From IMG/VR virus record IMGVR_UViG_3300049893_001613, positions 1-64,000 of that record: DNA of 64,000 nt; one strand, written 5' to 3'. How positions within the stretch are numbered: the first letter of the stretch is position 1; each line of letters begins with the position of its first letter. Below, in pieces: positions 4,035 through 15,831 of the stretch. The notes under the pieces are model-generated. The model saw only the letters and a program-made list of their open reading frames with translations. It did not search any database and had not been told where the DNA came from. Position numbers and translations under genes: made by a program. The DNA is from a virus.

Positions 4035-4044
4035 CGTTGGTGAC

Positions 4045-4611
4045 TTAAGCGTGCTCTAAAGTCTTCTCTGCAGTTGCAGTTTGTGTAACTGGTGCAAAGA
4101 AACTAGCAAGGTCAAGCTTAGGTGCAGCAACAGCAGGCTTACGCTTGATGTTAGTTACACGCAATACTTTTTCTTGCTCACGAGATTCTACGTAATCAAT
4201 GGTAACCTCTACCTTCTCACCTTTCATAGGTAAGTCAGCAGCACGGCCTTCACGTTGCCAGATGTTAGCCGTCAAGAACAGACCATTAGTCTCTTCAATA
4301 GGTACTTCTTGCTTGTCTGCGAAGACTTGCTTTAATTGTGGCAATTTGTCAGCAGCTACTGCTTTCAAATTTGCAATGTAGCGTGGATTTTGTCCATCAG
4401 CATCAGCTACGAGGTTGCCCTCTGTTACATTGCTTAGCACTTCGAGTTCATATTTGCCTGGGGCACTGATGATACTGTAAGCTGCCAAAAGAACGGTTTT
4501 AAACATGATCTTTTCCATTTGTATTTGTTTTAAAAGTTTGTAAAATTTTATCCTTCTCTCTGCATTTACACGGACTTGAGACCGTATGAGTGACCTTGAC
4601 TCATGTTGCAT
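4045..4611 (-). CDS. Hypothetical protein, possibly OB-fold/ssDNA-binding; start probably at MEKIMFK
   Basis: Beta-rich protein with flexible tail next to the polymerase; function inferred from position only. Confidence 0.55.
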   Translation of the reverse strand: MQHESRSLIRSQVRVNAERRIKFYKLLKQIQMEKIMFKTVLLAAYSIISAPGKYELEVLSNVTEGNLVADADGQNPRYIANLKAVAADKLPQLKQVFADKQEVPIEETNGLFLTANIWQREGRAADLPMKGEKVEVTIDYVESREQEKVLRVTNIKRKPAVAAPKLDLASFFAPVTQTATAEKTLEHA

Positions 4612-6969: not shown

Positions 6970-7328
6970 GATTGTTTATTTGGTGGAACAAAATAATTGA
7001 TAAGCCAAACGTGTGATAGTCCCAGTGCGAATAGGGACGCTATAACCTCATTGTTCATTGGTGTGCTGCATGGTGATCAGACCATACATGAACCTAATAG
7101 CTGCAACAGCATACCCGTTCAAAGGCGAAATGAAGCTGTTATATCCACCGCTATGGTATCTCCACGGGATGGCTTACAATTTCTAAGCTATAATCTTCTG
7201 GTAGCTCTTCCAGGGTTGATAACATCATAAGATGTTGTTCTCTCTCATGCTCTAACCACAGTAGCATAAGTTGTTCTTCAGTTAATTCCTCGTCAGGCAT
7301 GTTAGAATTATTAAAGTTGAGAATAGAA

Positions 7329-7400
7329 ATCAGAAGACCCTTTTTTTTTGCGTTTTTAGATTACGAGTCTATTGCATTTAAGGTTGCTGTAGGTCTTCTT
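7329..7400 (-). ncRNA. Y-RNA-like hairpin unit D (distal)
   Basis: AGAAGACCU/GGGUCUUCU closing stem, ACAGCAA after the 5' arm, internal UAGA-CUCGUAA-UCUA hairpin. Confidence 0.7.
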
Positions 7401-7539
7401 ATCAGAGAACTGTTTTTTGCTTACGCGTCCTGGGCCACTAGACGATCCCCGTGTGTGTTGTTATAGCACGGGGAGGAGGATTCGAACACTCCGTTTCGCG
7501 ATCCTGAATCGATGCATAGTAATTGCTGTAAGTTCTCTT
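7401..7539 (-). ncRNA. Y-RNA-like unit C with circularly permuted tRNA domain (YrlA-like topology)
   Basis: AGAGAACU/AGUUCUCU stem, ACAGCAA; inside: T arm (UUCGAAU), closed acceptor stem UCCCCGUG/CACGGGGA, then D arm GUCUAGUGGCCCAGGAC. Confidence 0.8.
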
Positions 7540-7602
7540 ATCAGAGTCCACGTTCTTTTTCACCTAATTGAAGTAGTTTTTAAGATTGCTGTTGGGACTC
7601 TT
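7540..7602 (-). ncRNA. Y-RNA-like hairpin unit B
   Basis: AGAGUCC/GGACUCU stem, ACAGCAA, CUGAUAAG junctions on both sides. Confidence 0.7.
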
Positions 7603-7668
7603 ATCAGGTCGGGGATCTTGTTTTTCATATTTGGCTTGAAAAGTTGTAAGAGTTGCTGGCCCGTCCTT
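7603..7668 (-). ncRNA. Y-RNA-like hairpin unit A (proximal)
   Basis: AGGACGGG/CCCGACCU stem with one mismatch, CCAGCAA variant, internal UUUUCA/UGAAAA helix. Confidence 0.6.
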
Positions 7669-7670
7669 AT

Positions 7671-7704
7671 AAAAGAAGAGGGGACAAGTTGTAAACCCCC
7701 CTTC
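7671..7704 (-). terminator. Terminator-like hairpin between DUF2828 gene and RNA array
   Basis: GAAGGGGGG/CCCCUCUUC (G-U pair possible only on the minus strand) followed by UUUU. Confidence 0.6.
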
Positions 7705-7733
7705 TTCGTTACTGAAATCCTACGTTTGTTCAA

Positions 7734-9410
7734 TTAGATTTCAATAGTATTCATTATCTCCTGGTTCATAGCAGCTTCGAATAACTCCACATCTGTTTGT
7801 GGTACTTTATCCTGGCCTTGAACTCCAGTAAGAAATGCAATGGTTGAACCATCATATCCGCTAAAATAGTAGACATTCTTGGTTTCACCATATGTTTCGA
7901 ATTTCTCCCCGGTACCACGACCGTAGTAGTTACTCTGTAAATTCCATAAGATAATTTTGAAGTTACTTATGTAATCTTTAGAGAACCCGGCACTGCGTAA
8001 TGTACTGTAAGCTGTCTCCACATTAGTTTTACCTAATGATGTTGGATTAAACTCACTGTCACTGATACACAGTATACCAGTAGGGAATTGTTCTTCAGGT
8101 ACACCCGTTGATTTGATTCTTGCAAATAACCGGATAACTGATTGGAAATCTGTTCCTCCAATATAACTTGAGCGGTCATTAGTCCACTTTTCCCACGGTG
8201 TTGAACCTTTCCACTGATGCATTTTAGCATCACTGTTAAATTCAATCCATGATGAAGCAAAATAACCATCAGGTAACATTTCAGAAAAGAATAATGCGAG
8301 AGCTTTACCAATCTCATAACATGATTGCTTGGTACCAATAGCTGTTGAACTCATTGAAGCTGATGTATCACGCACAACAATTAATGATGTACCTGTTACT
8401 GCATTCTTCTTTGCTGTTTCTACCAGGCCCTTGAACTGTGCATTGATTGTATCAATCTGATACTTCTTGCTGGGTTTAGTAGCAAACAATTCATGTACAT
8501 AACCGGTGAATTTAGCAATAGGTTTAGAGGCTATCCACTCTTCATATTTCTTCTCTAATCCATTGTTAGCCAGGAACTTACCTGATACTAACTGACTTAA
8601 AGCACGTCCATGTACAGTAGAGAAATCAATCTCAAGTAATTTCTTCTTTGAGATTAACTGCTGCCATACGTGAGCTGTACCACTTGATTTCAACTGGCGG
8701 TATTGCTTGTAAGTCGAAGAGGTTTGTTTGTTTCCAAACAACTGAGAACATAACCACTTGGCAATAACATTATCAGCCTGGGCTTCTAACGTTCTGCATT
8801 TACTGTTAGCACGTAACTGTGGTAAATATTTACGTACTAAGTGAGTTGTTTTAGGATTCTCCAATCCAGCAAGTATTACCTTTGAGAATTCATCCCAGTG
8901 TAATTGTCTGCCTTCCCATCCATTGTACTGCAGATCATATGACAGCATTTGGATAACATCTTTCCATGATCCTACGGATATGAATAATTCAATGTTCTTC
9001 CAGAATGTCTGTGGGTGATTAACAGCCAGCCATACCATGCGGGTAATACCTTCATGTCTTAAGCCAGCACCACGTTGTACAGTAGTAGTCTTACTTCCAT
9101 TAAAGAATGACACGACCCTTGTGATAAGGCGTATAAACAATATGAAAGCAACAGTCATCCGGGGATTTATCGCCCATAATGTGGACGTGTCCGTAGCGAT
9201 ATCAGAATAATTCCTTGGTTGTTTGTACAATCCAAGTTTAGAGAACTGATCAACAAAAGCATTTCCGGTTGTACTGAACTTCTCGGCACCATTACCACTA
9301 AGGGTACGTGCTGCATTCTTTAGTCCTGCATTAACAAAAGCATTAGGGGTAACAACAGATGTCGCTGAGTTTCCATTTTCAAATAGAGATTTTTGTTTGC
9401 GGTCAAACAT
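7734..9410 (-). CDS. DUF2828-family protein (Ro60/TROVE-like helical domain plus C-terminal vWA)
   Basis: NGAEKFSTTGNAFVDQF, RGAGLR, GSWKD, vWA MIDAS DTSASMS, GGTDFQSV, ISDSEFN, IILWNL, FSGY; ~560 aa like Ro60/Rsr. Confidence 0.85.
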   Translation of the reverse strand: MFDRKQKSLFENGNSATSVVTPNAFVNAGLKNAARTLSGNGAEKFSTTGNAFVDQFSKLGLYKQPRNYSDIATDTSTLWAINPRMTVAFILFIRLITRVVSFFNGSKTTTVQRGAGLRHEGITRMVWLAVNHPQTFWKNIELFISVGSWKDVIQMLSYDLQYNGWEGRQLHWDEFSKVILAGLENPKTTHLVRKYLPQLRANSKCRTLEAQADNVIAKWLCSQLFGNKQTSSTYKQYRQLKSSGTAHVWQQLISKKKLLEIDFSTVHGRALSQLVSGKFLANNGLEKKYEEWIASKPIAKFTGYVHELFATKPSKKYQIDTINAQFKGLVETAKKNAVTGTSLIVVRDTSASMSSTAIGTKQSCYEIGKALALFFSEMLPDGYFASSWIEFNSDAKMHQWKGSTPWEKWTNDRSSYIGGTDFQSVIRLFARIKSTGVPEEQFPTGILCISDSEFNPTSLGKTNVETAYSTLRSAGFSKDYISNFKIILWNLQSNYYGRGTGEKFETYGETKNVYYFSGYDGSTIAFLTGVQGQDKVPQTDVELFEAAMNQEIMNTIEI

Positions 9411-9421
9411 CTTATTAGGGT

Positions 9422-15697: not shown

Positions 15698-15775
15698 ATG
15701 AAGAAAGTATTAAAATCTGAAGAACAAGAGGCAGAAGAGCAATATGCTCCTGTCATCTATTTGGTTAGGATCTAA
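15698..15775 (+). CDS. Glu-rich leader peptide (25 aa) overlapping tRNA-Glu
   Basis: MKKVLKSEEQEAEEQYAPVIYLVRI; 5 Glu in 7 codons just before tRNA-Glu; stop lies inside the tRNA. Confidence 0.65.
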   Translation: MKKVLKSEEQEAEEQYAPVIYLVRI

Positions 15776-15818
15776 CACTTTCAATGTTAAAAAACGAGTT
15801 CGAATCTCGTCAGGAGTA
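15746..15818 (+). tRNA. tRNA-Glu(TTC)
   Basis: Cloverleaf; loop CTTTCAA; TTCGAAT. Confidence 0.9.
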
Positions 15819-15831
15819 CTAAAATTTAAAA

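What the first reader, a model, noticed from the sequence alone, without database searches (positions are those of the whole stretch)
7424..7500. Circularly permuted tRNA inside array unit C
Seen on the minus strand in this order: CGCG, AAAC, T arm GGAGUG-UUCGAAU-CCUCC, acceptor helix UCCCCGUG/CACGGGGA closed by a 13-nt loop, UC, D arm GUCU-AGUGGCCC-AGGAC, and CGCG (its first C shared with the D arm). The 3' half precedes the 5' half and the anticodon stem continues into the carrier stem. Established: this is the YrlA layout. It is the best evidence that the array is Y-RNA-like, here paired with DUF2828 rather than a canonical Rsr.
Basis: partly seen in the sequence, partly recalled or inferred. 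Interest (0 to 1): 0.78.

Follow-up and report, generated by a model that had tools for sequence, protein, structure and literature searches.

The report
Sealed tRNA-Glu mimic in phage Y-like RNA
The "inside-out tRNA" is real: it is a glutamate-tRNA look-alike with no anticodon and a closed amino-acid end, carried by the third of four small RNAs encoded just after a phage gene for a Ro60-shaped protein, and the pair probably forms a largely undescribed relative of the Ro60/Y-RNA particle.

Summary
Observation confirmed. On the minus strand, 7500-7424 reads: short stem strand, 4-nt variable loop, T arm, 8-bp acceptor helix closed by a 13-nt loop, UC, D arm, short stem strand.

- **tRNA-Glu likeness:** the 19 nt from U8 to C25 are identical to 83 of 83 bacterial tRNA-Glu genes sampled. 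U8, A14, G15:C48, G18G19 and the T loop are all present.
- **Carrier:** the module sits inside unit C (7538-7404). This is one of four tandem "handle" RNAs: a covarying 7-9-bp stem, ACAGCAA, and GAUA linkers between units.
- **Partner gene:** the array directly follows a DUF2828/DUF7788 gene whose predicted structure matches Ro60 over its full length.
- **Relatives:** 32 distinct permuted modules lie in the same kind of carrier next to homologous genes. Their helices covary, and the tertiary 15:48 pair does too.

The layout is that of YrlA. Membership of YrlA fails on three counts: no Rfam hit, no GNCGAA motif, and no Pfam TROVE match.

The Bas63 homologue gp130 has the same RNAs and is reported to counter the Ppl defence. 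RNA expression, protein binding and function were not tested here.

This scan has found the same family many times before on other DNA. I found no published description of the RNA family.

The parts
7734..9410 (-). Gene for a 558-aa DUF2828/DUF7788 protein with a predicted Ro60-like ring plus vWA domain (MIDAS D348-x-S350-x-S352)
   Evidence: Pfam DUF7788 E 1.8e-10 and DUF2828 27.8 bits. PHROG 850 'RNA-binding protein'. AF2 model pLDDT 85, pTM 0.87. Foldseek top 12 hits are all Ro60/TROVE, full length, E 1e-6 to 1e-4. MIDAS residues invariant in 33 homologues.
9352..9415 (-). Handle-like RNA element spanning the gene's own start codon (AGAUGUU ... GACAUCU-G, with ACCGCAA in place of ACAGCAA). 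Candidate operator for autoregulation.
   Evidence: Third-best hit of handle model R2 in the whole window (28.3 bits, E 0.0012). The same position is hit in 5 relatives (L041 48.2 bits, L016 43.7, L015, L072, L011). Seen by script in 14 of 36 distinct gene starts.
7671..7707 (-). Terminator-like hairpin (9 bp with one bulged A, about 14-nt loop, UUUU) between the stop codon and the array
   Evidence: Read directly. Not called by the consensus scan because its loop exceeds 8 nt.
7607..7666 (-). Unit A: degenerate handle RNA (GGACGGG/CCCGACC with an A.A mismatch, CCAGCAA)
   Evidence: Read directly. Not found by R2.
7543..7601 (-). Unit B: plain handle RNA (AGAGUCC/GGACUCU, AACAGCAA)
   Evidence: R2 56.7 bits, E 6e-10. 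Parser. Sub-threshold RF01414 hit, 24.0 bits.
7404..7538 (-). Unit C: handle RNA (8-bp stem AGAGAACU/AGUUCUCU, UACAGCAA) that carries the tRNA-like cargo
   Evidence: Parser. Sequence. The stem is part of the minimum-free-energy fold.
7424..7500 (-). Circularly permuted tRNA-Glu-like module. Order: short stem strand, AAAC variable loop, T arm, sealed 8-bp acceptor helix, U8 C9, D arm, short stem strand.
7332..7399 (-). Unit D: plain handle RNA (AGAAGACCU/GGGUCUUCU, ACAGCAA)
   Evidence: R2 39.9 bits, E 3e-6. Sub-threshold RF01414 hit, 23.0 bits.

Best explanation
The segment is the tRNA-mimicking cargo domain of a Y-RNA-like small RNA.

**What is there.** Four RNAs are encoded head to tail right after a gene for a Ro60-shaped protein (DUF2828/DUF7788). 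They share a 'handle': a 7-9-bp closing stem that starts AG and ends CU, then ACAGCAA just inside the 5' arm. Four-nucleotide GAUA linkers separate the units.

**Proposed mechanism.**
1. The array is transcribed on the gene's strand.
2. It is cut in the GAUA linkers into RNAs of about 60 to 135 nt.
3. The handle is held by the ring protein, as the conserved stem of Y RNAs is held by Ro60.
4. Unit C additionally displays a complete tRNA-Glu body (D/T elbow, 4-nt variable loop). It has no anticodon arm and its acceptor end is sealed.
5. As proposed for the tRNA-like domain of YrlA, this body most likely docks a host factor that recognises tRNA shape. Candidates are a modification enzyme, RNase P, a nuclease or a defence protein. 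The body would either tether that factor to the ring or divert it from real tRNAs.
6. In a phage with 20 tRNA genes of its own, the likely purpose is RNA surveillance or counter-defence during infection.

**Shown here (by computation):** the sequence anatomy, conservation and covariation of all helices and of the 15:48 tertiary pair, strict co-location and co-orientation with the gene, and the Ro60-like predicted fold.

**Inferred:** transcription, processing, protein binding, the identity of the docked factor, and the biological role.
For: **Anatomy**
- Sequence anatomy at 7500-7424.
- The relatives-only model R1 has its top window hit here.

**Relatives**
- 32 distinct permuted modules lie inside handle units next to homologous genes. 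None overlaps an ARAGORN tRNA.
- There are 4-6 pair types at most helix positions (G53:C61 is invariant), and closing loops of 3-84 nt.
- The Levitt pair covaries: G15:C48 in 17, A15:U48 in 6, none mixed, 2 G:A exceptions (Fisher p 1e-5). U8, A14 and A21 are present in 25/25, although the parser did not demand them.
- With a donor anticodon arm inserted, ARAGORN re-joined modules as tRNA. It when the halves are mismatched.

**tRNA-Glu identity**
- U8-C25 is identical to 83/83 tRNA-Glu genes.

**Handle**
- Stem covariation: 97% of cells paired against 66% in shuffles; score 0.82 against 0.24; 0 of 500 shuffles reach it.
- Handle model R2 finds units B and D and the gene's start region in the window.
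- R2 gives 86 hits in 38 of 52 homologous loci, and all 86 are on the gene's strand. These include Listeria phage LMSP-25 and Bacillus phage Tsamsa.

**Protein**
- Ro60-like fold and a conserved MIDAS motif.

**Published context**
- The YrlA design is published (PMC4201824) and relatives' units score 29-42 bits on RF02553.
- The distant homologue Bas63 gp130 (tblastn E 2e-8) is followed by handle RNAs and a permuted module (R1 38.9 bits, E 4e-11).
- gp130 is reported as Ro60-like and as a counter of the Ppl defence (bioRxiv 10.1101/2024.10.10.617714).
Against: - There is no expression or binding data. No RNA run was listed.
- The window's T stem has a bulged U.
- The nearest-neighbour minimum-energy fold of unit C replaces the T arm by a GAUUC/GAAUC helix (-37.1 against -32.2 kcal/mol).
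- R1 also scores junctions of ordinary tandem tRNAs at 14-24 bits, so the model score alone discriminates poorly.
- The helix covariation counts come from a parser that required pairing, so only the diversity of pair types and the 15:48 test are free of that bias.
- This phage encodes no RtcB, no Rnl2-type ligase and no CCA-adding enzyme. A self-contained phage RNA-repair module is therefore not supported.
- 14 of 52 homologous loci show no handle within the 1.5-kb flanks.
Confidence: 0.7

Rival explanations
1. The handle RNAs, including the tRNA-Glu mimic, act on their own without being bound by the DUF2828 protein. They could be decoys or sponges for host tRNA-targeting defence enzymes, or processing signals. 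The gene linkage would then reflect only co-expression.
For: No binding data exist. The cargo types are diverse tRNA bodies (Glu-like, generic GCUC type, Leu-like), as expected of decoys. 14 of 52 homologous loci lack handles nearby.
Against: All 86 handles lie on the gene's strand and directly abut it in very different phage lineages. A handle copy lies over the gene's own start codon in the window and in 5 relatives, which is best explained by the protein recognising the handle. The protein has a Ro60 fold, and the known partners of Ro60 are stem-closed small RNAs (PMC4201824).
Confidence: 0.15
2. The segment is the junction of two decayed tandem tRNA genes: the T arm and 3' end of one, and the 5' end and D arm of the next.
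For: Chen et al. warn that dimeric tRNAs mimic YrlA in searches. R1 scores real junctions in the 14.9-17.4-kb tRNA array at up to 24 bits.
Against: The two acceptor strands pair 8 of 8 with each other, against 1-5 of 7 at the 19 real junctions. No remnant of the missing halves exists; the flanks are the handle. 31 further modules in relatives keep the same closed helix with different sequences and loops as short as 3-4 nt.
Confidence: 0.03
3. It is a functional circularly permuted tRNA gene (as in Cyanidioschyzon), or a tRNA with a novel intron, that is processed into a decoding tRNA-Glu.
For: The 3' half precedes the 5' half. The body carries tRNA-Glu features, including the 4-nt variable loop.
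Against: There is no anticodon loop. The 3-bp stem opens into 30-nt and 13-nt strands that end in the handle. The acceptor helix does not match tRNA-Glu: its C-rich strand is on the 3' side. The phage already has a normal tRNA-Glu at 15746-15819. ARAGORN and RF00005 find nothing here.
Confidence: 0.03
4. It is a tRNA fragment kept as a phage attachment (attP) remnant of integration into a host tRNA-Glu gene.
For: Phage attP sites often carry the T arm and 3' acceptor strand of a host tRNA. The D-arm string is identical to bacterial tRNA-Glu genes.
Against: attP does not explain the following 5' strand and D arm in permuted order. It also does not explain the mutual complementarity, the bulged T stem, the handle context, or the 31 parallel cases beside DUF2828 genes.
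Confidence: 0.02

Closest known systems
YrlA, the tRNA-like Y RNA of bacteria and mycobacteriophages (Rfam RF02553; Chen et al. 2014, PMC4201824)
   Same: Same architecture: a terminal stem enclosing variable region, T arm, closed acceptor stem-loop and D arm, with the tRNA tertiary nucleotides including a covarying 15:48 pair. Encoded next to the gene of a Ro60-fold protein, often in several copies. Relatives' units score 29-42 bits on the YrlA model.
   Different: The window element gives no RF02553 hit at E<=10 (gathering score 69). The Ro60-binding motif GNCGAA(N)G is absent and is replaced by stem + ACAGCAA. The partner protein is DUF2828/DUF7788 (11-15% identical to Ro60 in the structure alignments), not a Pfam TROVE protein. 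The units form a tight GAUA-linked tandem array. The cargo is specifically tRNA-Glu-like.
Thermus phage phiLo Ro60 with Yrl1/Yrl2 (PMC12135203; PDB 9KOP, 9L5Y)
   Same: A phage-encoded Ro60-fold ring with small partner RNAs encoded beside its gene. 9KOP and 9L5Y are among the best structural matches of the window protein (TM 0.54/0.62 and 0.47/0.54).
   Different: phiLo Yrls are described as having a CGAA-containing bulge and a stem-bulge-stem shape, with no tRNA-like module and no ACAGCAA handle reported. phiLo Ro60 was identified by its authors as a Ro60 homologue through a UniProt search.
Bas63 (Escherichia phage JohannRWettstein) gp130, a counter of the Ppl defence (PhageMaP preprint, 10.1101/2024.10.10.617714)
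   Same: A distant homologue of the window protein (E 2e-8). It is directly followed by handle RNAs and one permuted tRNA module. The authors noted the Ro60-like fold and guessed that some neighbouring 'tRNA genes' might be Y RNAs.
   Different: The RNAs themselves were not identified or described there. In the record, the permuted module lies under a small hypothetical ORF on the opposite strand. It is a different phage lineage (Felixounavirus) with about 25% protein identity.
Class I RNAs of Dictyostelium (Rfam RF01414; Kjellin et al. 2021, PMC7919456)
   Same: The plain units share every conserved feature listed for Class I RNAs: (A)AG start, a 6-7-bp terminal stem conserved in structure but not in sequence, UUACAGCAA right after the 5' arm, an A-rich variable interior, a CUG end, and a length of 55-68 nt. 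RF01414 scores 24.0 and 23.0 bits in the window and up to 39.3 bits in a relative.
   Different: All scores are below the gathering score of 41.5. Class I RNAs are dispersed eukaryotic genes with a DUSE promoter, and their only named binder is the RRM protein Rnp1A. No tRNA-like cargo is known for them. I could not test whether dictyostelids encode a DUF2828 protein.

Membership tests
YrlA (Rfam RF02553) | Order: closing stem, variable region, T arm, closed acceptor stem-loop, D arm, closing stem | tested here: met
   Sequence. Layout as described in PMC4201824 and in the RF02553 consensus line.
YrlA (Rfam RF02553) | tRNA tertiary-interaction nucleotides, including a covarying 15:48 pair | tested here: met
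   The window element has U8, A14, G15:C48, G18G19, A21 and UUCGAAU. Across 25 modules: G15:C48 in 17, A15:U48 in 6, none mixed, 2 G:A exceptions.
YrlA (Rfam RF02553) | Score at or above the curated gathering score (69 bits) | tested here: not met
   No RF02553 hit on 7200-7800 at E<=10. Relatives score 29.1-42.0 bits.
YrlA (Rfam RF02553) | Conserved GNCGAAN0-1G motif in the Ro60-binding module | tested here: not met
   A regular-expression scan of 7700-7320 (minus strand) finds none.
YrlA (Rfam RF02553) | Encoded beside a TROVE-domain Ro60 orthologue | tested here: inconclusive
   Pfam gives DUF7788 and DUF2828 and no TROVE match at E<=0.01. The predicted fold nevertheless matches Ro60 over about 560 columns.
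YrlA (Rfam RF02553) | Bound by the ring protein; modified by TruB/DusA; cleaved by RNase P | not testable with these tools
   Needs immunoprecipitation, modification mapping and cleavage assays.
Ro60 / TROVE proteins | HEAT-repeat ring followed by a vWA domain with a MIDAS motif | tested here: met
   AF2 model pTM 0.87. Top 12 Foldseek hits are Ro60/Rsr/phage Ro60. D348, S350 and S352 are invariant. This rests on a predicted structure only.
Ro60 / TROVE proteins | Sequence-level membership (Pfam TROVE) | tested here: not met
   Only PF25043 and PF11443 match. Identity to Ro60 chains is 11-15% in the structure alignments.
Phage 'handle' RNAs beside DUF2828 genes (seen repeatedly by this scan; no publication found) | A 7-9-bp covarying closing stem, ACAGCAA just inside the 5' arm, G after the 3' arm, on the strand of an adjacent DUF2828 gene | tested here: met
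   Unit C has an 8-bp stem plus UACAGCAA. Units B and D score 56.7 and 39.9 bits on R2. Stem covariation. 86 of 86 hits are on the gene strand.
Dictyostelium Class I RNA (Rfam RF01414) | Short terminal stem, 11-nt motif CCUUACAGCAA next to the 5' arm, conserved AAG start and CUG(U) end, 42-65 nt | tested here: met
   Units B and D (59 and 68 nt). Features as listed in PMC7919456. Unit C (135 nt, with cargo) exceeds the size range.
Dictyostelium Class I RNA (Rfam RF01414) | Score at or above the gathering score (41.5 bits) | tested here: not met
   24.0 and 23.0 bits in the window. Best relative 39.3 bits. Others 32-37 bits.
Dictyostelium Class I RNA (Rfam RF01414) | DUSE promoter about 60 nt upstream; dictyostelid genome | tested here: not met
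   The units are contiguous in a phage array with 4-nt linkers, so there is no room for individual promoters.
Canonical tRNA (RF00005 / ARAGORN) | Contiguous cloverleaf with an anticodon arm | tested here: not met
   No hit at 7404-7538 from Rfam at gathering or at E<=10, nor from ARAGORN.
Circularly permuted tRNA genes (Cyanidioschyzon type) | Both halves together contain a complete anticodon arm and give a mature decoding tRNA | tested here: not met
   No anticodon loop. The 3-bp stem opens into the handle strands.

The most novel reading that the evidence does not exclude
The handle (AAG, short covarying stem, UUACAGCAA, A-rich interior, CUG) is the same protein-binding module as in the Class I RNAs of Dictyostelium. 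Those RNAs are published as unique to dictyostelids and lack a known mechanism. On this reading, Class I RNAs would be the cellular counterparts of phage partner RNAs of DUF2828-type Ro60-like proteins. The phage versions would show what the module is for: presenting cargo, such as a sealed tRNA-Glu body, on a Ro60-like ring.
Probability: 0.2. Interest if true: 0.85.

Novelty: new variant of a known kind. Interest (0 to 1): 0.62.

Why it matters
Ro60/Y-RNA particles are conserved from bacteria to humans, yet how the tRNA-like part of bacterial Y RNAs is used is still unclear.

This locus shows the same design built on a different protein-binding handle, for a very divergent Ro60-fold protein that is common in large phages. 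The cargo can be assigned to one tRNA species, tRNA-Glu. That makes two things directly testable:
- which tRNA-shape reader is recruited or decoyed;
- whether the RNAs are needed for counter-defence. The tractable homologue Bas63 gp130 is already linked to escape from the Ppl system.

The handle copy over the gene's start codon suggests that the protein represses its own translation.

If the resemblance to Dictyostelium Class I RNAs reflects common ancestry, it would give those abundant RNAs, unexplained since 2004, a candidate partner and mechanism.

Tried and rejected
- **Rfam at gathering threshold on the window:** only the 17 ordinary tRNAs.
- **blastn of the array against 50,697 phage records:** no match.
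- **RNA evidence:** no RNA holder was listed by the look-up of sequencing runs.
- **The look-up of encoding contigs:** I could not fetch the 72-88% identical relatives to compare orthologous copies of unit C.
- **Metagenome scan:** gave 10 loci, none closer than the IMG/VR ones. It did add further permuted modules.
- **Does Dictyostelium encode a DUF2828 protein?** Not resolved.
  - The ESM Atlas returned only viral clusters.
  - A search for longer homologues found none.
  - The supplements of a Dictyostelium proteome paper do not contain the term.
  - Avesson et al. 2011, which lists the four Class I-binding proteins, is not held.
- **Phage-encoded RNA-repair partners** (RtcB, Rnl2-type ligase, CCA-adding enzyme): absent from this 96-kb record.
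- **Thermodynamic folding:** keeps the handle, acceptor and D hairpins but not the T arm. This is not decisive either way.
- **Sigma-70 and terminator consensus scans:** no more sites than in shuffles.
- **Small ORFs overlapping the array on either strand:** no PHROG match.
- **Rejected readings:** decayed tandem tRNAs, a functional permuted tRNA or intron, and an attP remnant (see rivals).

Full report
**Observation.**
Read on the minus strand, the segment contains the following, in order:
- CGCG 7500-7497;
- AAAC 7496-7493;
- a T arm at 7492-7475, with a 5-bp stem that needs one bulged U, the loop UUCGAAU and the G53:C61 closing pair;
- UCCCCGUG at 7474-7467 pairing with CACGGGGA at 7453-7446, across a 13-nt loop;
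- UC at 7445-7444;
- a D arm at 7443-7427 (GUCU / AGUGGCCCA / GGAC);
- GCG at 7426-7424.

There are two corrections. Only three pairs of the anticodon-like stem can form without breaking the D stem. That stem is also separated from the carrier stem by about 30 nt on the 5' side and 13 nt on the 3' side, so it does not simply continue into it.

ARAGORN and the Rfam tRNA model find nothing here, as expected for a permuted arrangement.

**Is it more than chance?**
I built a covariance model (R1) from 13 permuted modules of related phages, with no window sequence in it. Its best hit in the 64-kb window, on both strands, is 7504-7419 (25.1 bits, E 6.5e-6, every modelled pair standard).

The model also scores junctions between ordinary neighbouring tRNAs at 14-24 bits, the artefact Chen et al. 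warned about. I therefore tested the discriminating feature directly.
- At the 19 real tandem junctions of this window's tRNA array, the 3' acceptor strand of one tRNA pairs with the 5' strand of the next at only 1-5 of 7 positions. In the element it pairs at 7 of 7, plus an eighth pair.
- The 19 nt from U8 to C25 are identical to sequences in at least 120 bacterial loci from many phyla. In the 80 loci I examined, all 83 matches lie inside tRNA-Glu genes (42 CUC, 41 UUC).
- The 4-nt variable loop also fits tRNA-Glu. One sampled tRNA-Glu gene can be read with the same AAAC before its T stem. From memory, E. coli tRNA-Glu has a 4-nt loop as well.
- The acceptor helix, by contrast, is not that of tRNA-Glu. 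The phage's own tRNA-Glu (15746-15819) is quite different.

**Context.**
The element is the interior of unit C (7538-7404). Unit C is the third of four head-to-tail units that begin 27 nt after a terminator-like hairpin downstream of the 9410-7734 gene. Units B, C and D share these features:
- a closing stem that starts AG and ends CU (7, 8 and 9 bp, different sequences);
- (N)ACAGCAA directly after the 5' arm;
- an A-rich 3' interior;
- 4-nt GAUA linkers between the units.

Unit A is a degenerate copy.

A second model (R2), built from 24 plain units of relatives, finds unit B (56.7 bits) and unit D (39.9 bits). Its third-best hit in the window is a handle-like element lying exactly over the gene's start codon (9415-9352; 28.3 bits, E 0.0012).

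**The protein.**
- Pfam reports DUF7788 and, just under threshold, DUF2828, with no TROVE match. PHROGs calls the family 'RNA-binding protein'.
- An AlphaFold2 model built from 33 homologues (pLDDT 85, pTM 0.87) has Ro60 structures as its twelve best PDB matches, aligned over about 490-590 columns at 11-15% identity. These are Xenopus and human Ro60, Deinococcus Rsr and Thermus phage phiLo Ro60.
- The MIDAS residues of the vWA domain are invariant.

The protein is Ro60-like in predicted fold, not in sequence family.

**Relatives.**
A profile search of IMG/VR returned 72 loci with homologues of 35-72% identity.
- Across these and four GenBank phages, a script found 32 distinct permuted modules. 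All lie inside handle units and none overlaps an ARAGORN tRNA.
- The T, acceptor and D helices show four to six different standard pair types at most positions. G53:C61 is invariant and the D stem is less varied. The acceptor helix is closed by loops of 3 to 84 nt, often tetraloops.
- The parser demanded pairing, so the percentage of paired positions is circular. The diversity of pair types is not.
- The tertiary Levitt pair is a truly independent test. It is G15:C48 in 17 modules and A15:U48 in 6, never mixed, with 2 G:A exceptions (Fisher p about 1e-5, uncorrected for relatedness). U8, A14 and A21 are present in 25 of 25.
- When each module's halves are re-joined around a donor anticodon arm, ARAGORN of 32 as tRNA. 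It of 155 when the halves are mismatched (the window's bulged U was omitted in that construct).
- Cargo types differ. Seven modules, including the window's, are tRNA-Glu-like (UC GUCU...GGAC or GGAU). Most have the generic UA GCUC...GAGC D arm, and a few have D loops that look tRNA-Leu-like (my reading; not tested).
- A Glu-like module in L203 keeps the T and D arms of those in L024/L073, but with a completely different, still complementary, acceptor helix.

**The handle.**
- On the alignment of 24 plain units, 97% of cells in the 7-bp stem form standard pairs, against 66% in shuffles. All seven pairs show double changes. The covariation score is 0.82 against 0.24, reached by 0 of 500 shuffles. 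It falls to about 0.1 when the partner columns are slid.
- R2 finds 86 units in 38 of 52 homologous loci, and all 86 are on the strand of the gene.
- These include units just upstream of the DUF2828 genes of Listeria phage LMSP-25 and Bacillus phage Tsamsa. Both lineages are unrelated to this phage, which earlier notes of this scan call crAss-like (not checked here).
- Five relatives also have a handle over the start codon.

**Comparison with known families.**
The layout is that of YrlA (PMC4201824). The RF02553 consensus shows the same outer stem, 3-bp inner stem, T arm, closed acceptor hairpin, UA and D arm. Relatives' units hit that model at 29-42 bits.

The window element itself gives no RF02553 hit at E<=10. 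The curated threshold is 69 bits. The Ro60-binding motif GNCGAA(N)G is absent from the array. I therefore do not file it as a YrlA family member. It works like one, but on a different handle.

The plain units resemble the Class I RNAs of Dictyostelium in every feature that Kjellin et al. list (AAG start, short covarying stem, UUACAGCAA, CUG end, about 60 nt). RF01414 scores reach 24 bits in the window and 39.3 bits in a relative, always below the 41.5-bit threshold. [quoted passage not shown] I could not determine whether dictyostelids encode a DUF2828 protein.

**Function.**
Nothing here shows expression or binding. No RNA run was listed.

The nearest experimental evidence comes from a preprint on coliphage Bas63. 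It reports that gp130 has a Ro60-like structure, sits directly upstream of the tRNA genes and counters the Ppl defence system. It also guesses that some of those 'tRNA genes' may be Y RNAs.
- I confirmed that gp130 (locus tag bas63_0130) is a distant homologue of the window protein (tblastn E 2e-8).
- The tRNA region after it contains handle units (best 33.4 bits) and one clean permuted module (R1 38.9 bits, E 4e-11). That module lies under a small ORF annotated on the opposite strand.

The window phage has no RtcB, no Rnl2-type ligase and no CCA-adding enzyme, so any enzymatic partner must come from the host.

My best reading is a Y-RNA-like particle. The ring protein holds the handle, and unit C presents a sealed tRNA-Glu body to a host factor that reads tRNA shape, probably in the service of counter-defence or RNA surveillance. 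The start-codon handle suggests that the protein also represses its own translation.

**Standing of the finding.**
This scan has reported the same protein-RNA family many times on other DNA, including the Class I resemblance and a handle copy in a 5' UTR. In the searchable literature I found only two near-anticipations:
- the Bas63 speculation;
- a remark that some jumbo phages carry a ROT/TROVE protein.

'DUF2828' occurs in five unrelated papers. The RNA family itself appears undescribed.

- the assignment of the window's cargo to tRNA-Glu;
- the 15:48 tertiary covariation within this clade;
- the quantitative exclusion of the tandem-tRNA artefact;
- the direct link of the family to the experimentally characterised Bas63 gp130 locus.

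Noticed in passing
window 9352-9415 (minus strand): A handle-like element (AGAUGUU ... GACAUCU-G, with ACCGCAA) encloses the AUG of the DUF2828 gene. In 14 of 36 distinct relatives the 3' arm (..CAUCU-G) recurs 50-74 nt downstream. It is always in the same reading frame, with fixed third-codon positions while the encoded residue varies. This suggests translational autoregulation by the protein.
   Followed up: partly
window 7332-7399 and 7543-7601; L002:4734-4791: The plain units match the Rfam model of Dictyostelium Class I RNA over its full length (23-24 bits here, 39.3 bits in Leptolyngbya phage Lbo-JY46; gathering score 41.5). They share the published AAG start, UUACAGCAA motif and CUG end.
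   Followed up: partly
L209:5610-5717 (MZ501086.1, about 82785-82892): In coliphage Bas63 a handle plus permuted tRNA module lies under the annotated hypothetical ORF bas63_0137 on the opposite strand. That ORF is probably a mis-annotation of an RNA gene.
   Followed up: partly
L003:727-849 (Bacillus phage Tsamsa): A handle unit with a permuted tRNA module sits between the annotated tRNA-Glu and tRNA-Ile, upstream of the phage's DUF2828 gene. The same array holds two 'tRNA-OTHER' pseudogene annotations that I did not examine.
   Followed up: no
window 7507-7511 with 7479-7483 (minus strand): GAUUC upstream of the module can pair with GAAUC of the T loop/stem. This gives the minimum-energy fold (-37.1 against -32.2 kcal/mol for the tRNA-like fold). 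It may be a chance helix or an alternative conformation.
   Followed up: no
L041:4314-4656; L065:3691-4047 and 4040-4255: Relatives carry a tmRNA-like gene, and in L065 a group I intron hit, within about 1 kb downstream of the handle array.
   Followed up: no
The handle model R2 gives no hit there at E<=10, so it is probably not a handle unit.
   Followed up: partly
G000 (whole 96-kb record): The phage has 20 tRNA genes and the Ro60-like system, but no RtcB, no Rnl2-type RNA ligase and no CCA-adding enzyme by Pfam search.
   Followed up: yes
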